From a virus: DNA of 64,000 nucleotides. Numbering within the stretch: position 1 is the first letter of the stretch; the number at the start of each line of letters is the position of its first letter. The notes beneath the pieces were generated by a model. It searched no databases, was not told the DNA's origin, and saw only the letters and a list, made by a program, of their open reading frames with translations. Made by a program: the position numbers and the translations under genes. Where the stretch lies: positions 5,407 through 69,406 of the IMG/VR virus record IMGVR_UViG_3300033153_007262; one strand, 5' to 3'. Below, piece by piece: positions 42,782-50,960 of this stretch.

Positions 42782-43063
42782 ATGGAAGGATTATCATTGG
42801 GAGGACTGGACGTTTATAGTGCGGGCGGAATATTAGCCGTAGCGATACCGTTCATTGTTCAGCAAATAAAGAAATTGAAATTCATTGGAAATAAGAATGC
42901 GCCAATCCTCGCATTTATTCTCGGTCTTGCCGGAGGCCTTGCCGGGTACTTTACCGGCTTTGCGCCGGAGGGGATGTCGCTAATCCAATCCATCGTGTCG
43001 GGCATTGCGGTCGGGGGAACGTCCTCCGGGTTGTATGACGTAGCCAAAAAAGTCGGCACATAA
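42782..43063 (+). CDS. holin
   Basis: AGGAGG RBS; 3 TM; IVQQIKK...P....GI..G..SSGLYD..K motif. Confidence 0.75.
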   Translation: MEGLSLGGLDVYSAGGILAVAIPFIVQQIKKLKFIGNKNAPILAFILGLAGGLAGYFTGFAPEGMSLIQSIVSGIAVGGTSSGLYDVAKKVGT

Positions 43064-43079
43064 AATCAGGGAATCGACC

Positions 43080-43110
43080 GAGCCGGGGCATCAAACCCCG
43101 GCTCTTTTTT
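43080..43110 (+). terminator. intrinsic terminator ending the late operon
   Basis: GAGCCGGGG/CCCCGGCTC stem followed by 6 T. Confidence 0.85.
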
Positions 43111-43401: not shown

Positions 43402-43875
43402 ATAAGTGGGACGGGGAGGGACGCCGAACCACCGGGACGGTCGAGGGCGAGACGCCGGGGAAAGAGAAGGCCGACAGGGATTGACAAAAAGGGAAGCGGA
43501 AACAGGGACGACCAGCCGGGGGAACAGGACGAGGCGGGCCGGACGCAAACCCTCAAGGACACGGCGGAATAAGACCCGGGAGCATAAAGGCGCAAGCCAG
43601 AAACCCGCCCGGAGGACGCCGGCTACCAAAACCGAGAGAAGCCAATAAAGTTTACGGGGCTTGAAAAAACTCAAACCGAAATCGGCGGAAGGTAGATTGA
43701 CCGAATCCCGAAAGGCCCGGTCAAGTGAAAGAGGCAGAGGATTGGAAAAGAAGCAATTTTCAAAAAAAGGTATTTTGCCATATGCCTTAAATAACAATAA
43801 TGGGAATGGCGGGGAACGGCGGTTGCCCCAAATTTTCAAACGCCCTTTTGTCCGTTAAGCCAAACGGAGTTATCA

Positions 43876-43947
43876 GGCGAAAGTCTACGGCCCTTACCCG
43901 GGCCGGTAGGCTCCGCAAGGCGGTCGTTCCCCTTGCGCTGATGAGCC
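43876..43947 (+). ncRNA. hammerhead ribozyme HH0, type II (predicted cut after 43913, CUC)
   Basis: GGC-GAAA-stem III (AGTCTAC..GTAGGCT)-C-stem I (CGCAAGG/CCTTGCG)-CTGATGA-GCC. Confidence 0.85.
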
Positions 43948-43955
43948 AAACGCAA

Positions 43956-44010
43956 ACCCGCTGATGAGACCGGGAGGCACGGTCGAAACGGTATAAAAAA
44001 CCGTCCGGGT
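43956..44010 (+). ncRNA. hammerhead ribozyme HH1, type I (cut after 44005, GUC)
   Basis: ACCCG-CTGATGA-GACCG/CGGTC-GAAA-CGGT/ACCG-TC-CGGGT. Confidence 0.93.
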
Positions 44011-44040
44011 AATAATGCCCAATAAAAACGGAGGTGCATT

Positions 44041-44379
44041 ATGAGAGTACAAATCGATGCAACAATTGAGAAAGCCGACCAGAAATTGGCGGTGGGAACG
44101 GGCCTGCAAGGATATTTCAGCCGAGGCACAACCTACAAAGCGCTAGTTGAAAAGTTAGGAAAGCCAAACGCCGGAGAATCAGGCGACGGCAAGGTCAAGG
44201 CGGAATGGATTGTCAAACTGAAGTTTCATAGGAAAGACCCCGGCATAATATTTACAATCTACGATTATAAATCGTCGGTTGCGCCGGAGGAGAATACCGA
44301 TTGGCACATAGGAGGCAAAGGTCAGGCAATGCTCGAAATCTTTTCCCAAGTAATGGGGATTGGGATTGAGAACGATTAA
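44041..44379 (+). CDS. hypothetical early protein
   Basis: GGAGGT RBS; DGKVKAEW...FTIYDYK...WHIGG common phage small-protein pattern. Confidence 0.8.
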   Translation: MRVQIDATIEKADQKLAVGTGLQGYFSRGTTYKALVEKLGKPNAGESGDGKVKAEWIVKLKFHRKDPGIIFTIYDYKSSVAPEENTDWHIGGKGQAMLEIFSQVMGIGIEND

Positions 44380-44444
44380 CCCGCTGATGAGCCGTTGAGA
44401 TTACGGCGAAACGCCCCGGGGCGCAAGCCCCCGGGCGTCCGGGT
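44379..44444 (+). ncRNA. hammerhead ribozyme HH2, type I (cut after 44439, GUC)
   Basis: ACCCG-CTGATGA-GCCGT/ACGGC-GAAA-CGCCC..GCAA..GGGCG-TC-CGGGT. Confidence 0.93.
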
Positions 44445-44473
44445 AATAATGCCCAAGAAAATGGAGGTGGGAA

Positions 44474-44989
44474 ATGGCATTAGGAACGAATTATAAAAGA
44501 ATCGGAAGGAAGCAAGACCTCATTTTGCGGATTCAAATCGCCCGGGTTGGACATCTTGGCGGGGTTTACGGCAAGATGACGAGGGACGAGGCGGTCGAAA
44601 GTACAAAAGGTTACAGCCGGAAATTAACGGTTGGAGAATTAGCCGAAATATTAAAACCGCTTGAGGCAATAGCAAAGAAGAAAAGGCCGACCGAAGGGAA
44701 ATGGAAATTCGTTTATTCCAAAGGCTTAACGCCGACGGCAAGGATTGTGTCGGTTGATTTGCTAAACAAAGGATACTCGGATTGGATTTGCGAGATGCCC
44801 TTTGGCAGTGAATCGGAAGCGAGGGAGATGGGCGGTAGCCACATCGCCAACGCCCGGTTAATAGCAAGGGCGCCGGAACTAATAGAGAAGTTAAAGGAGG
44901 CTGAAAAGTTTTTGAAAATGCTCGGCGTGAAAGACGAAATTGTTGATGAGATAAATTCATTAATAAATAAAGTTGAGCAGACGAGATAA
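44474..44989 (+). CDS. hypothetical early protein
   Basis: GGAGGT RBS; ANARLIARAPEL motif seen in many phage small proteins. Confidence 0.8.
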   Translation: MALGTNYKRIGRKQDLILRIQIARVGHLGGVYGKMTRDEAVESTKGYSRKLTVGELAEILKPLEAIAKKKRPTEGKWKFVYSKGLTPTARIVSVDLLNKGYSDWICEMPFGSESEAREMGGSHIANARLIARAPELIEKLKEAEKFLKMLGVKDEIVDEINSLINKVEQTR

Positions 44990-44990
44990 A

Positions 44991-45054
44991 ACCCTCTGAT
45001 GAGCCGGCGAGATACCGGCGAAACCGCCCGGGCGCAAGCCCGGACGGTCAGGGT
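44991..45054 (+). ncRNA. hammerhead ribozyme HH3, type I (cut after 45049, GUC)
   Basis: ACCCT-CTGATGA-GCCGG/CCGGC-GAAA-CCG..GCAA..CGG-TC-AGGGT. Confidence 0.93.
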
Positions 45055-45082
45055 AATAATGCCCATAACAAGGAGGTGCATT

Positions 45083-45538
45083 ATGAATAACACGCCGACA
45101 AAAAAGTATCTTCAAGAGAATGTTATTGTTGACGAGGTCAGCAAGAACAAGGCCGGCAATTTTATTTTTAGGGAGGGGTTCTTCTATACGCACGGGCGCA
45201 CGGCAAACAGCCACGCCGACAGCATACAGAAGCAACTTACGGATTTGGGATTTAAGAATTTCAAATTCGTCGACACCGGGGAGCATTGGAGGGAATTCAA
45301 AGGTGGCGCCTCGTTAAGAACGCAGTCGCATTGGTATGTCGAAGTTAAGTTTGACGCCGAGGAGCCGGATGTCACGGCGCCGGTTAAGGTTGGCGACAAG
45401 TTGTACTCTTGGGACGGTAAGATTGGAACGGTAAAGAAGATTCACGCTTTGGGCGATATGGCCGACGTGGATTTTGGCAACGGCAACATTTACGGAATTG
45501 CCTTTAGCCGAATCAAAGGTAGCAAAGTTGGAAAATAA
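45083..45538 (+). CDS. hypothetical early protein (start corrected to ATG 45083)
   Basis: AGGAGGT RBS; C-terminal SH3/KOW-like VKVGDK...G.V segment. Confidence 0.8.
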   Translation: MNNTPTKKYLQENVIVDEVSKNKAGNFIFREGFFYTHGRTANSHADSIQKQLTDLGFKNFKFVDTGEHWREFKGGASLRTQSHWYVEVKFDAEEPDVTAPVKVGDKLYSWDGKIGTVKKIHALGDMADVDFGNGNIYGIAFSRIKGSKVGK

Positions 45539-45604
45539 ACCCGCTGATGAGATTGTGAAAGTCAATCGAAACGCCCCGGGGCGCAAGCCCCCGGGCGTCC
45601 GGGT
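45539..45604 (+). ncRNA. hammerhead ribozyme HH4, type I (cut after 45599, GUC)
   Basis: ACCCG-CTGATGA-GATTG/CAATC-GAAA-CGCCC..GGGCG-TC-CGGGT. Confidence 0.93.
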
Positions 45605-45632
45605 AATAATGCCCAAAACAAGGAGGCGCATT

Positions 45633-45911
45633 ATGAAAAAGACAACGGGATATACGTCAAAGAAGGTTCACTATTGGCAGTTGAACCCAAAAGACCGGGC
45701 AACATATGACCGGCAAGAATCATTAAAAGAAGAAGGGGATTGTGAACGGTTTTATTTTTGGCTGTTCACCCCGGGCATCGGGTACCGGCAAATGGGGTAC
45801 ACCGAGGGATACAAAACGGTCGAGGCGCTAAAGGAACATTGCATTAATAATCGTACCGATTGTATTTACCGCATTACAAGGTCACAGATTTGTCTTTCAA
45901 ATAAAAGATAA
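45633..45911 (+). CDS. hypothetical early protein (start ATG 45633), paralog of 46416..46676
   Basis: AGGAGG RBS; ERFYFWLF...RQMGYTEGYKT. Confidence 0.8.
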   Translation: MKKTTGYTSKKVHYWQLNPKDRATYDRQESLKEEGDCERFYFWLFTPGIGYRQMGYTEGYKTVEALKEHCINNRTDCIYRITRSQICLSNKR

Positions 45912-45912
45912 A

Positions 45913-45970
45913 ACCCTCTGACGAGTCTTTGAAAATTAAGACGAAACCGCCGGCCCCCGGCGGTCAGGGT
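45913..45970 (+). ncRNA. hammerhead ribozyme HH5, type I (cut after 45965, GUC)
   Basis: ACCCT-CTGACGA-GTCTT/AAGAC-GAAA-CCGCCGG/CCGGCGG-TC-AGGGT. Confidence 0.93.
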
Positions 45971-45999
45971 AATAATGCCCATAAAACAGGAGGTGCATT

Positions 46000-46323
46000 A
46001 TGGTAAAACGAATCGATAAATTAAAAAAGTTGGTAGCGGAGTTTGAGTCCTTGCAGAAAAGGTACAAACATACCGGCGCCGACGACACCGAGCCGGACGC
46101 ACAGTTTCAGTTACGCTTGGTACAGTTTTATCAAGGGAATAGCGAGTTGCCGGCAAGAAGAGAATGGGAACTATACTCGGGCCATAAAAGGCACGACGAG
46201 GTTGCCGACCTTTTGACGGCGAAGTTAAAAGAAATCCGAACAGTTATTCACGGCTCGACGGATAGTAACCACGAGGAAATAAAAACATACCTCGAGGAAT
46301 ATGTTTGGAGAATAGATTTTTAA
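46000..46323 (+). CDS. hypothetical early protein
   Basis: AGGAGGT RBS; GADDTEPD motif. Confidence 0.8.
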   Translation: MVKRIDKLKKLVAEFESLQKRYKHTGADDTEPDAQFQLRLVQFYQGNSELPARREWELYSGHKRHDEVADLLTAKLKEIRTVIHGSTDSNHEEIKTYLEEYVWRIDF

Positions 46324-46388
46324 CCCTCTGACGAGTCGTTGAAAATTACGACGAAATATTCCCCGGCGACGCCGGGGGATATCAGGGT
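46323..46388 (+). ncRNA. hammerhead ribozyme HH6, type I (cut after 46383, AUC)
   Basis: ACCCT-CTGACGA-GTCGT/ACGAC-GAAA-TATTCCCCGGC/GCCGGGGGATA-TC-AGGGT. Confidence 0.93.
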
Positions 46389-46415
46389 AATGATGCCCAT
46401 AAAAAGGAGGACGTT

Positions 46416-46676
46416 ATGGAAAAGAAAAAGACGACCCAAACGTGGGAAATGACAAAGAAGGAATTGCGGGCGCAAACGTTGGACAAGTCAAAAGCAGAAT
46501 CATATGAAACAGAACGATTTTACTTTTGGCTGTTCTCGGAAGCCGGCGGTTGGAGGCAGTTGGGATACACCGAGGGGTACAAAACGGAAAAGGCATTGAG
46601 AGAAGATAATAAATATCATTTCGATAAGAAAGATATTATCCGCATTACAAAATCAACGATTATTAAAAGAGGCTAA
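46416..46676 (+). CDS. hypothetical early protein, paralog of 45633..45911
   Basis: AGGAGG RBS; ERFYFWLF...RQLGYTEGYKT. Confidence 0.8.
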   Translation: MEKKKTTQTWEMTKKELRAQTLDKSKAESYETERFYFWLFSEAGGWRQLGYTEGYKTEKALREDNKYHFDKKDIIRITKSTIIKRG

Positions 46677-46731
46677 CCCGCTGATGAGATTGTGAAATTC
46701 AATCGAAACGCCCGGCGACGGGCGTCCGGGT
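46676..46731 (+). ncRNA. hammerhead ribozyme HH7, type I (cut after 46726, GUC)
   Basis: ACCCG-CTGATGA-GATTG/CAATC-GAAA-CGCCCG-GCGA-CGGGCG-TC-CGGGT. Confidence 0.93.
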
Positions 46732-46760
46732 AATGATGCCCATAAAATGGGAGGTGTATT

Positions 46761-47237
46761 ATGAGCGAGAAAGCATATCTGAAAAAGAAAGGACGCCTTG
46801 AGTGTATGGTCGAGGTTGCAGAATCGGAGATTGAGTTTATAGACGGCTCAATCGAAAAGGTAAAAGAGAAAGCCGAACGACAAATCAAAAAGTTGTTAGA
46901 GATGTCCGGCAAGATTGAAGACCGCCGGGACAAATACAACGACCAGATTAAACAAATTGATGAACAACTCGGCGCTTGCCAGAAAAGAAAAGTTGCCAAG
47001 ACACAGGTACTTGCCGGCGAGGACAAATCGGTATGGGTGTTTTACGAAGCCTACGACTTTGTTGCCGAGGCAAAGATTGAGGCGCTTGGAAAGAAATTGA
47101 AATTAAAAAGAGAAGGAAGCGGTGGAGGATTCCAATCGTCAAAGAGAGATATCTCGTTTGGCCTCGGGGGTAACCCAAAGGAAAAAATCCTCAAAGCATT
47201 CCGTAAACTAAAAGATGTGACGGCAAGGATTTATTAA
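46761..47237 (+). CDS. hypothetical early protein, N-terminal coiled coil
   Basis: GGAGGT RBS; 158-aa ORF. Confidence 0.8.
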   Translation: MSEKAYLKKKGRLECMVEVAESEIEFIDGSIEKVKEKAERQIKKLLEMSGKIEDRRDKYNDQIKQIDEQLGACQKRKVAKTQVLAGEDKSVWVFYEAYDFVAEAKIEALGKKLKLKREGSGGGFQSSKRDISFGLGGNPKEKILKAFRKLKDVTARIY

Positions 47238-47238
47238 A

Positions 47239-47293
47239 ACCCTCTGACGAGTCCGTGCAACCCGGACGAAACGCCCCGGTGGGGCGTCAGGGT
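47239..47293 (+). ncRNA. hammerhead ribozyme HH8, type I (cut after 47288, GUC)
   Basis: ACCCT-CTGACGA-GTCCG/CGGAC-GAAA-CGCCCC/GGGGCG-TC-AGGGT. Confidence 0.93.
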
Positions 47294-47315
47294 AACCCAT
47301 AACAAGGAGGACGGA

Positions 47316-47531
47316 ATGAGTAAGCAACCACCGAGACCGTACTTCGGTACGGATTGGACAGGAAAATGTATCACGAGCAGTTATATGAGTGTCGAACGTG
47401 TAGAAAAAGAAATCCTAAGTCGATGGGGAGCCGAGAACAGGTGGGGCTACCGCCCCGGGACTTATAAAGTCATCGACGTGAAAAGAAATGTTTACAAGGA
47501 AATAAGAATTGAGAGAAGAGAAACCCTCTGA
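47316..47531 (+). CDS. hypothetical early protein
   Basis: AAGGAGG RBS; its TGA stop lies inside the HH9 core. Confidence 0.75.
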   Translation: MSKQPPRPYFGTDWTGKCITSSYMSVERVEKEILSRWGAENRWGYRPGTYKVIDVKRNVYKEIRIERRETL

Positions 47532-47588
47532 GGAGTCTTTGGAAATTAAGACGAAATATTCCCCGGCGACGCCGGGGGATATCAGGGT
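47523..47588 (+). ncRNA. hammerhead ribozyme HH9, type I (cut after 47583, AUC)
   Basis: ACCCT-CTGAGGA-GTCTT/AAGAC-GAAA-TATTCCCCGGC/GCCGGGGGATA-TC-AGGGT. Confidence 0.92.
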
Positions 47589-47624
47589 AATAAAATCCAT
47601 AACAATTTAACACAGGAGGTGTCT

Positions 47625-48074
47625 ATGGAATTTATGTACAACGATGGAGGACGTGAGGACGCCGGGTATAAAGGTAGCGCCGGAGACTGCGTCGTCCGTG
47701 CCATCTCAATCGCAACCGGGAAGCCTTACCAAGAGGTGTACGACAAATTGAAAGACGCAAACCTCACGTTTGCATACACAAAAAGATGTCGTGTCGCCCG
47801 GAAGTTATTAAAGAGAGGCAGTACGCCGAGAAACGGGAATTACAAAAAAGTGTATCGGAAGTATTTAGAGGCGCTTGGATGGAAGTGGACACCGACGATG
47901 TTCATCGGTAGCGGGTGCAAAGTCCACCTCAAAAAAGACGAGTTGCCCGGCGGTAAACTTATTGTAAATGTTTCAAAGCATATAACTGCGGTTGTCGACG
48001 GAGTTATCAATGACACATTTGACTGCTCGAGGGACGAGACAAGATGTGTGTACGGATATTACATCAAAAACTAA
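47625..48074 (+). CDS. conserved phage protein, possible papain-like (Cys-His-Asp) fold
   Basis: AGGAGGT RBS; GDCVVRAI...KHITAVVDG...DTFD. Confidence 0.7.
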   Translation: MEFMYNDGGREDAGYKGSAGDCVVRAISIATGKPYQEVYDKLKDANLTFAYTKRCRVARKLLKRGSTPRNGNYKKVYRKYLEALGWKWTPTMFIGSGCKVHLKKDELPGGKLIVNVSKHITAVVDGVINDTFDCSRDETRCVYGYYIKN

Positions 48075-48120
48075 AGAGAACCCCGGCGAGGGTTTCCTCG
48101 CCCCAAACAAGGAGGGCAAG

Positions 48121-48522
48121 TTGAAGATTGTAAAATTCATTGTGCCGGAGAATTTGAAAGCCGGTGAGATTTACCCCGACCATAAAGTAATCGCTTATGG
48201 TGAAGTTGCGGGTGACAGCGGACAAGTTTACGACGTCGGGCGGTACGCCGACCTCGAATACTTCTGTTCGTGCAAGGGCCGGTTATTCAACCGGCAAAGC
48301 GAATGCAAACACATTCGGTTGTTCAAAGAACGGGAAGCCGACGAGATTATTGCGGAGGACGACCCGACCGAGACCCCCGGCGCCGAGTTTTGGAAGTCGG
48401 AATGGTGTGACTGTAACAAAGAGGACGCCCCGGTATTTTTTGACGACGGGGAGTGTTCTTGCGGAACGGTGAAGCATCATTATCATTGTAAATTCTGCGG
48501 TAAGATTACACAGATTGGATAA
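48121..48522 (+). CDS. SWIM zinc-finger protein (TTG start 48121)
   Basis: AAGGAGG RBS; CSC...CKH SWIM motif plus C-terminal Cys/His cluster. Confidence 0.7.
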   Translation: MKIVKFIVPENLKAGEIYPDHKVIAYGEVAGDSGQVYDVGRYADLEYFCSCKGRLFNRQSECKHIRLFKEREADEIIAEDDPTETPGAEFWKSEWCDCNKEDAPVFFDDGECSCGTVKHHYHCKFCGKITQIG

Positions 48523-48581
48523 TACAAACAACCCGGGGCGTGGGTATAAACGCTCACGCCTCCAAACAGGAGGAGAAGAAA

Positions 48582-49559
48582 ATGGCACACGCAGTTAACG
48601 AAGGGAAGCGAATGTTTTATGTTGGCGAGGTACCGTGGCACGGATTAGGCACGGCCCTCGACAAGCCGGCTACGTCGGTCGAGGCAATTGCATCGGCGCA
48701 GTTGGATTATCCCATCGAGTTAAAAGAAATACAGACCGTCGATGGCAGAATGATTGACGGGAAGCGGGCAACGGTGAGAGGCGATACAAAAGTCCCCCTC
48801 GGTGTTGTCGGTGACGGATATCGTGTTGTCCAGAACGTCGAAGCATTTAGTTTCTTCGACGAGGTGGTCGGCGAAGGTCAAGCCATCTATCATACCGCCG
48901 GGGCTTTAGGAGCCGGGGAACGAATTTGGATACTTGCGAAGTTGCCGGGCGAGTTAATTATAGGGAAGGAAGACAAGGTTGATGAATATCTTTGTCTTAC
49001 TAATTCCCACGACGGCAGAAGTTCGTTAAAAATGTATTTCACGCCAATCCGAGTTGTTTGTCAGAACACGTTGTCGATGTCAATGAAGGACGCTAAAGAC
49101 GGCGTTTCGATTCGACACTCCGGCAACATTAAAACTAAAGTTGAAAAGGCGCAGGAAACTTTACGCCTTGCGACAAAGTTTTATCAGGAGTTCGGCGAGG
49201 TAGCAAAGCAGTTAGGAAACACAAAGTTAAAAAAGGAACAGGTCGAGGGATATTTTACCGCCCTGTTGTTCAAAGGAGACAAGGAAAAAGAAAAAACGTC
49301 TGTGCAACTTAAACGTCAGAGAAATGAATTGTTGGCGCTGTGGGAACACGGCAAGGGCAACGATATCAAAGACATTAAGCACAGCGCTTGGACGGCCTAC
49401 AATTCCGTAACGGAATATGTTGACCATCACAAAACGTTCAAAGGCATTCAGAAAGACCCGTCGACCAGATTAAAAAATATCTGGTTCGGCACCGGGGCGA
49501 TTACGAAAGGCCGGGCGTTTGATGGCATTTTAGAAACAGCCGGTATCAAGGTAGGATAA
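48582..49559 (+). CDS. DUF932 family phage/plasmid protein
   Basis: AGGAGG RBS; PWHGLG, Y.VVQN.EAF.F, TAGAL..G, NSHDG, PIRVVCQNT motifs. Confidence 0.85.
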   Translation: MAHAVNEGKRMFYVGEVPWHGLGTALDKPATSVEAIASAQLDYPIELKEIQTVDGRMIDGKRATVRGDTKVPLGVVGDGYRVVQNVEAFSFFDEVVGEGQAIYHTAGALGAGERIWILAKLPGELIIGKEDKVDEYLCLTNSHDGRSSLKMYFTPIRVVCQNTLSMSMKDAKDGVSIRHSGNIKTKVEKAQETLRLATKFYQEFGEVAKQLGNTKLKKEQVEGYFTALLFKGDKEKEKTSVQLKRQRNELLALWEHGKGNDIKDIKHSAWTAYNSVTEYVDHHKTFKGIQKDPSTRLKNIWFGTGAITKGRAFDGILETAGIKVG

Positions 49560-49628
49560 TTACCAGACGGCCCGGGAGGGTGGCTCGCTACGGCGGGTTG
49601 CCCTCCCTTAAAGAAGGGAGTACGCCTT

Positions 49629-49868
49629 ATGGGAAAGAGCAAAGCAGAAACATTATTGAAATGGATACTGTGGCATTACCCGAACGGATATTTTAGGACA
49701 TCCGTCCGGGGTGTCCCGTGCCTCGTCGTTAAAAAAGGCAACACCGAGTTGGGCGTTGCATATTTTGGCAAGTCGGATTCGTTCAGAATGTTTGCCAATG
49801 ACGTCGGCGAGAAGTGGGATATTAAAACAAAAGAAGAGGTTATCGAATACCTGAAGGGAGGTGATTAA
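49629..49868 (+). CDS. hypothetical protein
   Basis: AGGGAG RBS. Confidence 0.7.
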   Translation: MGKSKAETLLKWILWHYPNGYFRTSVRGVPCLVVKKGNTELGVAYFGKSDSFRMFANDVGEKWDIKTKEEVIEYLKGGD

Positions 49869-50355
49869 TTTGAACCTCAAACAATTAAAAAGATTGTCAA
49901 AGGTCGCTAAGAAAAACTCGGCAGAGGTTTTGCAGTATGTTGTTATAACCCCCGAGCATTTAATTGTGACCGACGGCAAAGTGTTATTCAAAGAGAAGCA
50001 TTACAGCCGTAACCCGCCGGCGGAGACGTGTTATATCAAGCACGATGCGGTGGCTTCATTAAAAGGAACGATGTTTATAATCCGGGACGGCATTGGCTCG
50101 ACGGACAAAGGTACGATTGAGGTAAAAATGAAAACCGACGTTCAGTACCCGAATTGTGAAAATCTGCTAAAGACAGTGAGGAAGGGCGAGAGGCTCCACC
50201 GGGTTAAACTATACGGGGAGGTATTAAAAACGCTCGCCGATTCATTGGACAAGGAAGCAAAATATGAATTTCAATTCCCAAAAGACCCCGGGCAACCGAT
50301 TATTATTACCGGGCCGGTTGGCGTTGAGATTTTACTTTGCCCCCTGTATAAATAA
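49861..50355 (+). CDS. truncated beta-sliding-clamp-like protein
   Basis: VTDGKVL, YPNCENLL, PIII, ILLCP resemble DnaN domain II/III motifs (ATDGHRL, YP.Y..VI, LMP). Confidence 0.5.
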   Translation: MINLNLKQLKRLSKVAKKNSAEVLQYVVITPEHLIVTDGKVLFKEKHYSRNPPAETCYIKHDAVASLKGTMFIIRDGIGSTDKGTIEVKMKTDVQYPNCENLLKTVRKGERLHRVKLYGEVLKTLADSLDKEAKYEFQFPKDPGQPIIITGPVGVEILLCPLYK

Positions 50356-50369
50356 AAGAAAGGAAGCGA

Positions 50370-50615
50370 ATGCCAAGAAAAGATGTAGGAGACACAGACG
50401 CAATCCGGGTTTACCTCGGTAAGAAAGCGGGGGCTTGGACGATTGAGCCACCGAGAATTGTTGTAAAAGAATGGGCAGAGATGCGAGGCGTGAACACGTC
50501 GGGGACGGGAAGATGGAATATCAAACAGACGCACGATATTCTAATCGTCGCCCAATCGATTAAGGAAATAACAAAATTAATCAAGGCGTATCGGCGCAAG
50601 AATCAAATCCTCTGA
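50370..50615 (+). CDS. hypothetical protein
   Basis: AAGGA RBS; TGA stop inside the HH10 core. Confidence 0.7.
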   Translation: MPRKDVGDTDAIRVYLGKKAGAWTIEPPRIVVKEWAEMRGVNTSGTGRWNIKQTHDILIVAQSIKEITKLIKAYRRKNQIL

Positions 50616-50674
50616 TGAGACCGTGAGAGCCGGTCGAAACGCCCCGGGTGATTACCCGACCGGGGCGTCAGGAT
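50607..50674 (+). ncRNA. hammerhead ribozyme HH10, type I (cut after 50669, GUC)
   Basis: ATCCT-CTGATGA-GACCG/CGGTC-GAAA-CGCCCCG../..CGGGGCG-TC-AGGAT; compensatory change in stem I. Confidence 0.92.
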
Positions 50675-50699
50675 AACCATAACAAAGGAGGTGAGATAA

Positions 50700-50960
50700 A
50701 TGAAAAGAGCAGTCGCAGAAATAATTGTTGACCTCTTACAAGACGCCGGACACGACGCCAAGATTTACGAAGGGTATAGTGGCCGGGGGATGTTTGGGGT
50801 GGAGACGACCGGCATTGATACGTCGGCAACTTCCGAGTATGTTGCCGGGCTTGTTGCCGGCAAGAAAGACAAAGAAGAGTTTGACGAAAAAGAACGGGCG
50901 TTGTTGAACGCCGTTGTTATACGAGGAGATAATTTAGGGTTGGGCTACATCGTATATTAA
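50700..50960 (+). CDS. hypothetical early protein
   Basis: AGGAGGT RBS; YSGRGMFG...DNLGLGYIVY common phage small-protein motif. Confidence 0.8.
   Translation: MKRAVAEIIVDLLQDAGHDAKIYEGYSGRGMFGVETTGIDTSATSEYVAGLVAGKKDKEEFDEKERALLNAVVIRGDNLGLGYIVY

What the first reader, a model, noticed from the sequence alone, without database searches (positions are those of the whole stretch)
44379..47588. Ribozymes are mosaics of each other, suggesting recombinational cassette shuffling
HH4 has the stem II of HH7 (GATTG-TGAAA.T-CAATC) and a stem III plus tail identical to HH2 (CGCCCCGGGGCGCAAGCCCCCGGGCGTCCGGGTAATAATGCCCAA). HH9 has the stem II of HH5 (GTCTT-TG.AAATT-AAGAC) and the exact stem III of HH6 (TATTCCCCGGCGACGCCGGGGGATATCAGGGTAAT). 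The switch point is the shared CGAAA core. Inference: the ribozyme+RBS repeats act as homologous recombination anchors, so [ribozyme-RBS-gene] modules are gained, lost and reordered like an integrase-free cassette array.
Basis: partly seen in the sequence, partly recalled or inferred. Interest (0 to 1): 0.72.

Follow-up and report, generated by a model that had tools for sequence, protein, structure and literature searches.

The report
Mosaic hammerhead ribozymes between phage genes
An uncultured phage puts a self-cutting hammerhead RNA in front of each of ten small genes, and these repeated units have swapped pieces with one another and mark the edges of a gene block that a related phage has and this one lacks.

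Summary
Ten canonical type I hammerheads, each followed by a small hairpin, GGAGG and ATG, precede ten small phage genes. An eleventh, type II candidate lies just upstream.

The HH4 mosaic is statistically solid. Against HH2 it differs at 10/15 stem II positions but 0/26 stem III positions (Fisher p=2.7e-6). The 5' half-tree rejects HH2+HH4 (p-AU 0.009).

The HH9 = HH5 x HH6 claim is not distinguishable from plain descent from an HH6-like copy (p=0.053 and p-AU 0.23). Its stem II also occurs in unrelated phages.

The only retrievable relative is a 1.4-kb metagenome contig, L111. It has g8-HH-X-Y-HH-g9 where the window has g8-HH9-g9. Homology breaks inside the ribozymes, at the CGAAA core and at the UC-AGGGUAAU leader.

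Best reading: short-patch recombination or gene conversion between ribozyme units, which also changes cassette content.

Hammerhead arrays in prophages have been known since 2011. Repeat-mediated cassette shuffling is known from the PeSL elements of T4-type phages. Ribozymes in that role were found in none of five literature searches. This scan has noted the same pattern before on other phage DNA. No reads and no larger relatives could be obtained.

The parts
43875..43951 (+). Candidate type II hammerhead, in tandem just upstream of HH1
   Evidence: Rfam Hammerhead_II 30.3 bits, below the gathering score of 37. With the core held unpaired it folds as a three-way junction, -36.4 against an MFE of -38.0 kcal/mol.
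43956..44043 (+). HH1 unit (type I hammerhead, leader hairpin, GGAGG, ATG of g1); predicted cleavage after 44005
   Evidence: 56 bits
44379..44476 (+). HH2 unit; predicted cleavage after 44439. It holds the 50-nt tract 44407-44456, identical to HH4.
   Evidence: (81.1 bits)
44991..45085 (+). HH3 unit; predicted cleavage after 45049
   Evidence: 71.8 bits
45539..45635 (+). HH4 unit, the well-supported mosaic. Its 5' 23 nt (45538-45560) are identical to HH7; its 3' 50 nt (45567-45616) are identical to HH2. Predicted cleavage after 45599.
45913..46002 (+). HH5 unit; predicted cleavage after 45965. Its stem I and stem II are also found in unrelated phage contigs.
46323..46418 (+). HH6 unit; predicted cleavage after 46383. 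The 42-nt tract 46350-46391 is identical to HH9.
46676..46763 (+). HH7 unit; predicted cleavage after 46726
47239..47318 (+). HH8 unit; predicted cleavage after 47288
   Evidence: Rfam Hammerhead_1 23.8 bits, gathering score 34
47523..47627 (+). HH9 unit; predicted cleavage after 47583. Its 5' half is orthologous to L111 HHa, its stem III is identical to HH6, and its leader matches L111 HHb at 22/22 nt. The stop codon of g8 lies inside its CUGA core.
50607..50702 (+). HH10 unit, an outlying copy 3 kb downstream; predicted cleavage after 50669
   Evidence: 72.7 bits
44041..48074 (+). Nine single-gene cassettes g1-g9 (44041-44379, 44474-44989, 45083-45538, 45633-45911, 46000-46323, 46416-46676, 46761-47237, 47316-47531, 47625-48074). 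All are small proteins of unknown function. g4 and g6 are paralogues at 42% aa identity.
50700..50960 (+). g10, the gene led by HH10
43080..43104 (+). Terminator-like hairpin after the holin-like gene (42782-43063). It marks the end of the late genes, so the array starts a new transcription unit.

Best explanation
Between the lysis genes and the replication module, this phage has an operon of small accessory genes. Each gene is preceded by an 83-108-nt unit (length measured from 8 nt before the CUGA core to the ATG): a type I hammerhead ribozyme, a short leader hairpin, GGAGG and ATG.

At the RNA level the units most likely cut the long transcript into single-gene mRNAs. This is inferred from a perfect catalytic core and strong covariation.

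At the DNA level the units are dispersed direct repeats. They exchange short patches with one another by homologous or homeologous recombination or gene conversion. The exchanged tracts are about 25-50 nt and end in the invariant blocks (ACCCK-CUGANGAG, CGAAA, UC-NGGGUAAU). This produces mosaic ribozymes such as HH4. It also explains why HH9 carries the stem III of its paralogue HH6, while the orthologous units of the relative L111 carry other stems III.

Recombination at the same units also changes gene content. L111 has a two-gene block plus one extra unit exactly between the two halves that make up HH9.

Shown: the identity patterns, the heterogeneity statistics, the half-tree conflict, and an indel bounded by ribozymes. 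Inferred: the recombination mechanism, its direction, the enzymes involved, and RNA cleavage.
For: Ribozyme identity:
- 12 of 12 units (10 in the window, 2 in L111) have the core CUGANGA...GAAA, the A15.1-U16.1 pair and C17.
- 99.4% of 173 cells are paired, 10 of 15 pairs change on both sides, and 0 of 500 shuffles reach the covariation score.
- The pattern holds in 73 matches from 49 sources: 99.5% paired and 13 of 15 pairs covary.

Mosaic:
- HH2-HH4 differ at 10/15 stem II positions against 0/26 in stem III, p=2.7e-6.
- The 5' half rejects HH2+HH4, p-AU 0.009. The 3' half rejects HH5+HH9 (p-AU 0.0007) and HH2+HHb (p-AU 0.03), although HH2 and HHb have identical stems II.
- Identity is confined to the units. 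The flanking genes of HH2 and HH4 are unrelated.

Conversion within the genome:
- HH9 against HH6: stem III 0/25, leader 5/21.
- HH9 against HHb: stem III 13/26, leader 2/21 (Fisher p=0.004).
- The g8 and g9 flanks of L111 are only 78-82% identical to the window.

Cassette change:
- L111 reads g8'-HHa-X-Y-HHb-g9'. X and Y are absent from the window. Upstream homology ends at CGAAA and downstream homology resumes at UCAGGGUAAU.

Weak hint:
- The exact g2 protein is on 1 contig. g1, g5, g6, g7, g9 and g10 are each on 3. Of the 6 flanking control genes found in the collection (10 were asked for), 4 are on 3 contigs and 2 on 2.
- g2 has no other full-length homologue among 5.8 billion proteins.

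Substrate for recombination:
- 7 of 45 window pairs share an exact run of 20 nt or more, up to 50 and 42 nt.
Against: - Among the ten window copies, stem II and stem III classes form no cycle in the partition-intersection graph. A tree with whole-stem replacements, with HH4 as the ancestral form, therefore fits as well as 'HH4 = HH7 x HH2'.
- The HH9 example is not significant (p=0.053; p-AU 0.23).
- The stem II of HH5 and HH9 recurs in unrelated contigs (L001, L207, L231). Shared stems II can therefore reflect selection or wide spread rather than recent exchange.
- There is only one relative, 1,387 nt long.
- None of 35 loci with distant homologues of g9, g2 or g3 holds such a ribozyme. None of 7 of these loci scanned with Rfam holds any ribozyme.
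- No integrase, RecT, ERF or RecA was found in the 69-kb record.
- The AU and Fisher tests treat paired columns as independent, so the p-values are somewhat too small.
- The contig-count hint could come from assemblies breaking at the repeats.
- P0148 shares only the first 24 or so residues of g2 closely, so breakpoints may also lie inside genes.
Confidence: 0.6

Rival explanations
1. Plain duplication and divergence. The units descend from one another by duplication. Single stems then turn over quickly by compensatory change or small indels, with no templated exchange between copies. HH4 is simply the least changed copy.
For: Stem II and stem III classes in the window are formally compatible with one tree. 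HH6 and HH9 fit simple descent. Stem III is the most variable part across 73 homologues.
Against: HH2 and HH4 would need all four stem II base pairs plus two loop bases to change while 50 adjacent nt stayed identical, 26 of them equally free (p=2.7e-6). L111 HHb has the HH2 stem II exactly (15/15) in a unit with a different stem I class, stem III and leader. HH9 stem III is identical to a paralogue but unlike both orthologous units of L111.
Confidence: 0.15
2. Convergence under RNA-level selection. Only a few stem II and loop II sequences support fast folding or the loop II-stem I contact. Neighbouring ribozymes must differ to avoid misfolding, so the same stems recur independently.
For: The HH5-type stem II is identical in L001, L207 and L231, with other stems I and III. 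The loop II consensus (UGAGAUU or UGAAAAUU) is conserved across 49 sources. Neighbouring copies never share both stems.
Against: It cannot explain the 26-nt and 25-nt identical stems III, or identical leaders that reach into the unconstrained spacer (GGAGGYGYATTATG occurs only at 5 unit-led genes). It does not explain the indel in L111.
Confidence: 0.1
3. The hammerhead-leader unit is itself a small mobile insert that lands between genes. The genes do not move between fixed units.
For: Near-identical single hammerheads in 21 other viral loci lie between flanks that are non-homologous on one side (64 pairs) or on both sides (80 pairs) of 210 pairs. Leader identity runs right up to the ATG in front of unrelated genes.
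Against: There are no solo or degenerate units in the window (nothing between 56 and 16 bits). No transposase or retroelement gene was seen. In L111 the extra unit comes together with two extra genes.
Confidence: 0.08
4. Assembly artefact. The metagenome assembler joined reads wrongly at the repeats.
For: The 42-50-nt exact repeats could confuse short k-mers. Other assemblies seem to break within the array.
Against: HH7 and HH2 share only about 10 nt at the HH4 switch point, and HHa shares a similarly short core with other units. That is far below any assembler k-mer, so the mosaics must exist in the reads. Only cassette order around HH2/HH4 or HH6/HH9 could be affected.
Confidence: 0.03

Closest known systems
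Clustered hammerhead ribozymes flanking single genes or short gene blocks in prophages (Perreault et al. 2011, PMC3088659; passages read)
   Same: Several same-strand hammerheads flank individual genes. [quoted passage not shown]
   Different: Here there are ten type I units with a fixed leader hairpin, RBS and ATG. The point at issue is mosaicism of the ribozymes themselves and a cassette indel bounded by them. The word 'recombination' occurs 0 times in that paper's main text. Its supplementary alignments could not be seen.
PeSL (promoter-early stem-loop) regulatory cassettes of T4-type phages (Arbiol et al. 2010, PMC2839356, abstract read; Comeau et al. 2014, PMC4122927, listing only)
   Same: Short repeated intergenic regulatory units flank small non-essential ORFs in a variable region. 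Recombination between the units causes insertion, deletion and replacement between close relatives, without an integrase.
   Different: PeSLs are a sigma-70 promoter plus a terminator. The units here are ribozyme plus RBS, with no promoter-like or terminator-like site on the + strand inside them. Mini-circles, shown for PeSLs, are untested here.
Rfam Hammerhead_1 (RF00163) and RAGATH-1-hammerhead (RF03152)
   Same: Same catalytic core and three-helix junction, with stem I open.
   Different: All ten score below the gathering thresholds. The best scores are 23.8 against 34 bits for Hammerhead_1 and 28.5 against 56.3 bits for RAGATH-1. Stem I is only 5 bp.
Integron gene-cassette arrays (attC sites plus IntI)
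   Same: Array of promoterless single-gene cassettes separated by a repeated structured element.
   Different: No tyrosine recombinase in the record. The repeats are ribozymes transcribed with the genes, not attC sites.

Membership tests
Hammerhead ribozyme, type I | Catalytic core C3-U4-G5-A6-N7-G8-A9 and G12-A13-A14 | tested here: met
   10 of 10 window copies and 2 of 2 L111 copies. N7 is U, C or G.
Hammerhead ribozyme, type I | A15.1-U16.1 pair followed by the cleavage-site nucleotide H17 | tested here: met
   The pair is AU in 11 of 11 scorable rows; HH1 was misaligned by MAFFT but has it by eye. C17 is present in 12 of 12.
Hammerhead ribozyme, type I | Three helices around the core, supported by covariation, with stem I open and stems II and III closed by loops | tested here: met
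   99.4% of 173 cells paired, 10 of 15 pairs change on both sides, 0 of 500 shuffles reach the score, and slid controls pair at 27-41%. In 73 homologues, 99.5% are paired. In 9 of 12 the MFE fold has all three helices. In HH5, HH8 and HHb stem I is drawn shifted, and in HH4 stem II is drawn differently.
Hammerhead ribozyme, type I | Reaches the Rfam gathering score | tested here: not met
   0 hits at gathering in the window. The best is HH8 at 23.8 bits against 34.
Hammerhead ribozyme, type I | Self-cleavage | not testable with these tools
   No RNA run was listed. It needs in vitro transcription or 5'-end mapping.
Clustered phage hammerheads (Perreault 2011) | Several same-strand hammerheads flanking single genes in a phage or prophage | tested here: met
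   Nine consecutive single-gene cassettes plus one outlier, in a phage record with holin-like, helicase, primase and DnaE-like polymerase genes.
PeSL-type mobile regulatory cassettes | The unit consists of an early promoter plus a terminator stem-loop | tested here: not met
   No + strand promoter-like or terminator-like site inside any unit.
PeSL-type mobile regulatory cassettes | Indels between close relatives are bounded by the repeated units | tested here: met
   1 of 1 retrievable relative (L111): a two-gene block plus one unit, with junctions inside the ribozymes.
PeSL-type mobile regulatory cassettes | Circular excision products (mini-circles) | not testable with these tools
   No sequencing run was listed.
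Integron cassette array | Adjacent IntI-type tyrosine recombinase | tested here: not met
   PF00589 gives 0 matches in the 69,406-nt record; the control rings in 14 of 14 genomes. The record is 76% complete.
Integron cassette array | attC recombination sites between cassettes | not tested
   No attC model was run. The intergenic units are fully accounted for by the hammerhead plus leader.

The most novel reading that the evidence does not exclude
Hammerhead-leader units are a general cassette system of phages that needs no recombinase. The ribozyme's invariant catalytic blocks serve twice: as the RNA active site, and as the DNA crossover points through which accessory genes are inserted, deleted and swapped between phages. 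The free stems are kept diverse, which limits destructive deletions. The array would then be a ribozyme-based counterpart of PeSL shuffling or of an integron.
Probability: 0.3. Interest if true: 0.65.

Novelty: new variant of a known kind. Interest (0 to 1): 0.48.

Why it matters
The role of bacterial and phage hammerheads is still described as largely elusive (review PMC6765202, passages read). If the same ~100-nt unit both processes the transcript and serves as the homology that lets accessory genes come and go, two things follow. It would explain why ribozymes cluster in the variable early regions of phages. It would also add a second natural example, after PeSLs, of regulatory repeats that drive modular gene shuffling. 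A practical point: this hammerhead class is missed by Rfam thresholds (0 of 10 in the window), yet it occurs in many viral contigs (73 matches in 49 sources searched here).

Tried and rejected
- Sequencing runs for 43800-50800: none was listed, so no read mapping for deletion variants and no RNA ends.
Only 1 (L111) holds hammerheads; the rest look like chance matches.
- Genome-contig scan: 34 stretches, 3 real hammerheads, none from kin.
- Viral-contig scan with the general pattern: 44 stretches and no close relative. The arrays in L014, L047 and L011 are one phage, 100% identical.
- The search for related loci with the 355-aa gene, g7 and the helicase: no relatives.
- The g9, g2 and g3 searches gave 35 loci, none with a hammerhead.
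- The DnaE-like polymerase has no relative above 49% identity.
- The class-level compatibility test gave no stem II against stem III cycle. Cycles appear only once the L111 copies are included, and which pair of characters conflicts depends on the threshold: stem II against leader at 10%, stem I class against stem II at 20%.
- Rfam at gathering thresholds: nothing.
- PHROG and Pfam scans gave no function for g1-g10, X or Y.
- Integrase, RecT, ERF and RecA: none.
- Five literature searches found no paper that proposes hammerheads as recombination anchors in phage arrays.
- Supplementary files of Perreault 2011 were not consulted. They may already list hammerheads of this class.

Full report
**What is there.** The window is 64 kb of a 69,406-nt linear IMG/VR virus record, estimated 76% complete. 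All large ORFs are on the + strand. A holin-like gene (42782-43063) is followed by a strong terminator-like hairpin at 43080-43104. A replication module lies at 52.8-63.3 kb: helicase, DnaC-like loader, DnaB-like helicase, primase and a DnaE-like polymerase.

Between these two blocks, nine consecutive small genes (g1-g9, 71-171 aa) and one more at 50.7 kb (g10) are each preceded by the same kind of unit. PHROG and Pfam give none of the ten genes a known function.

Each unit reads, in order:
- ACCCK or AUCCU;
- CUGANGAG;
- a 4-bp helix with a 7-8-nt loop;
- CGAAA;
- a hairpin of variable length;
- UC;
- the complement of the first block;
- a small hairpin, GGGUAAUAAUGCCC in most copies;
- GGAGG and ATG.

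**The units are hammerheads.** This is the textbook type I hammerhead layout.
- All 12 copies examined (10 in the window, 2 in the relative L111) have the full catalytic core, the A15.1-U16.1 pair and C17.
- On my 12-row alignment, 99.4% of 173 cells are paired and 10 of 15 pairs show changes on both sides. None of 500 shuffles reaches the covariation score, and slid controls pair at 27-41%.
- A covariance model built from these rows finds exactly ten copies in the window (56-81 bits; next best 16 bits).
- The model finds 73 copies in 49 sources, with 99.5% of cells paired.
- Rfam misses all ten at its gathering thresholds. The best scores are 23.8 bits against 34 for Hammerhead_1 and 28.5 against 56.3 for RAGATH-1.
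- A type II candidate lies in tandem just before HH1 (43875-43951; 30.3 bits against 37).

**The observation.**
- HH4 and HH7 differ by 1 of 15 in stem II. HH4 and HH2 share a 50-nt identical tract from CGAAA to GCCCAA.
- HH9 and HH5 differ by 1 of 16 in stem II. HH9 and HH6 share a 42-nt identical tract.
- Identity does not extend into the neighbouring genes.

**Is it more than chance?**
- *HH4: yes.* HH2 and HH4 differ at 10/15 stem II positions and 0/26 stem III positions. Fisher p=2.7e-6, or 1.8e-4 after correction for all 66 pairs. An ML tree of the 5' halves joins HH4 with HH7 (support 86/91) and rejects HH2+HH4 (p-AU 0.009). The 3' halves of HH2 and HH4 are almost identical.
- *HH9: no.* HH6 and HH9 differ at 3/16 against 0/25 (p=0.053). 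The 5' half does not reject HH6+HH9 (p-AU 0.23). The three differences are one compensatory pair and one loop base. Simple descent from an HH6-like copy is enough.
- The stem II of HH5 is also identical in a human-faecal phage contig (L001) and in two Eubacteriales MAG contigs (L207, L231), each with other stems III. That stem is therefore a widespread variant.
- The distance matrices of stem II, stem III and leader are uncorrelated (Mantel r 0.15, 0.02, 0.02; p 0.13-0.39).

**Caveats on the statistics.** Paired columns are not independent, so the p-values are somewhat too small. At the level of stem classes, the ten window copies are compatible with one tree in which whole stems are replaced. 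'HH4 is the recombinant' and 'HH4 is the least changed copy' therefore cannot be told apart. What stands is that one stem was replaced as a block while 50 adjacent nt stayed identical.

**The relative.** A scan of metagenome contigs gave one true relative, L111 (1,387 nt), among 119 mostly chance hits.
- Its g8 fragment is 81% identical in protein to the window's g8 (26 aa). Its g9 is 82% identical (149 aa). At the DNA level the flanks are 78-82% identical.
- Where the window has g8-HH9-g9, L111 has g8'-HHa-X(138 aa)-Y(64 aa)-HHb-g9'. X and Y have no homologue in the window.
- Upstream homology runs through stem I, the core and the stem II helix, and stops at CGAAA. Downstream homology resumes at UCAGGGUAAUAAAAUCCAUAAC, where 22 of 22 nt are identical.
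- HH9 therefore corresponds to the 5' half of HHa plus the leader of HHb. Its stem III matches neither (15/25 and 13/26 differences) but is identical to its own paralogue HH6, 1.2 kb away.
- HHb carries the stem II of HH2 exactly (15/15), in a unit with a different stem I class, stem III and leader.

These facts point to two processes: patch-wise copying between units within one genome, and gain or loss of a gene block by recombination inside the units. The misjoins needed for L111 to be a chimeric assembly would fall in shared runs of about 10 nt, so chimerism is unlikely.

**A weak further hint.** Exact copies of g1, g5, g6, g7, g9 and g10 are on record on 3 contigs each. g3, g4 and g8 are on 2, and g2 is on 1 only.
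- I asked for 10 flanking control genes. Of these, 6 were found in the collection: 4 on 3 contigs and 2 on 2. The other 4 were not in the collection under my start codons.
- g2 has no other full-length homologue among 5.8 billion proteins. It has one 83-aa partial homologue, P0148, with 53% identity that is closest over the first 24 residues.

This fits presence/absence variation between HH2 and HH5. It could equally come from assemblies breaking at the repeats. I could not fetch those contigs.

- None of 35 viral loci with distant homologues of g9, g2 or g3 holds a hammerhead of this class.
- None of 7 of these loci scanned with Rfam holds any ribozyme.
- The genes therefore do not carry their ribozyme with them over long evolutionary distances.
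- No reordering was seen.
- No integrase, RecT, ERF or RecA is encoded in the record. Any recombination would rely on host functions or on unrecognised proteins.
- From memory, and not checked here: RecA-dependent recombination in E. coli needs about 23-27 bp of identity. Seven of 45 window pairs share exact runs of 20 nt or more, the longest being 50 and 42 nt.

**Comparison with what is known.**
- Perreault et al. 2011 (PMC3088659; passages read) already described several hammerheads flanking single genes in prophages. They noted that the genes are not constant and proposed transcript processing. The word 'recombination' does not occur in their main text.
- The closest mechanistic analogue is PeSL-mediated modular shuffling in T4-type phages (PMC2839356; abstract read). 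The units here have no promoter or terminator, so they work like PeSLs without being PeSLs.
- Five full-text searches found no paper that proposes ribozymes as the recombining repeats.
- Earlier agents of this scan reached similar readings on two other phages (e1-6035865, e1-6073406). I treat these as leads, not as evidence.

**Verdict.** One of its two examples is statistically robust, and the other is ordinary divergence. This is a new variant of known kinds (clustered phage hammerheads, repeat-mediated modular shuffling) and is of moderate interest.

Noticed in passing
window 43875-43951: A type II hammerhead candidate lies in tandem 4 nt before the type I HH1. It scores 30.3 bits for Rfam Hammerhead_II, below the gathering score of 37, and folds as a three-way junction when the core is held unpaired. 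The array would then start with two ribozymes of different topology.
   Followed up: partly
window, first 15-22 nt after each predicted cleavage site (e.g. 44006-44021, 44440-44455): The 3' strand of stem I can instead pair with a downstream GCCC to form a small hairpin (GGGUAAUAAUGCCC, -6.3 kcal/mol) at the new 5' end of the cut mRNA. It is present in 8 of 12 units and weaker in HH8, HH9, HH10 and HHb. It may act as a post-cleavage switch or a 5'-end stabiliser.
   Followed up: partly
window 47523-47531; L111 80-105: The stop codon of g8 is the UGA of the CUGA core of HH9. In L111 the g8 homologue reads on about 25 nt further and stops in loop II of HHa. Coding sequence and ribozyme therefore overlap.
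   Followed up: no
window 45633-45911 and 46416-46676: g4 and g6 are paralogues (42% aa identity, E about 1e-15), separated by g5. This points to an old cassette duplication or a double acquisition inside the array.
   Followed up: no
L010-L053 (viral contigs), L207, L211, L231: A widespread class of type I hammerhead followed by UAA, an RBS and ATG is missed in the window by Rfam thresholds. There are 73 matches to my model in 49 sources. Loop II (UGAGAUU or UGAAAAUU) and the AA before stem I are conserved.
   Followed up: partly
21 loci among L010-L053 (e.g. L010, L020, L036, L041): One nearly invariant hammerhead, including its stem III, lies between flanks that vary. Of 210 locus pairs, the flanks are homologous on both sides in 66, upstream only in 34, downstream only in 30, and on neither side in 80 (tblastx at 1e-5 over 1.5 kb). 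These may be paralogous positions or mosaic junctions.
   Followed up: partly
window 48540-49559; L014 2925-3875; L027 4798-5781: A DUF932 gene (phrog_1221) lies next to hammerhead arrays in three otherwise unrelated phages. In L014 it directly follows a hammerhead.
   Followed up: no
window 44474-44989 (g2) and P0148: g2 is an orphan with no other full-length homologue in 5.8 billion proteins. An 83-aa protein on a 7.9-kb contig shares its first 24 residues almost exactly and then diverges, so this may be a gene-internal mosaic junction.
   Followed up: partly
L065 1500-13500: A viral contig with a g9 homologue carries an array of about 22 tRNA genes.
   Followed up: no
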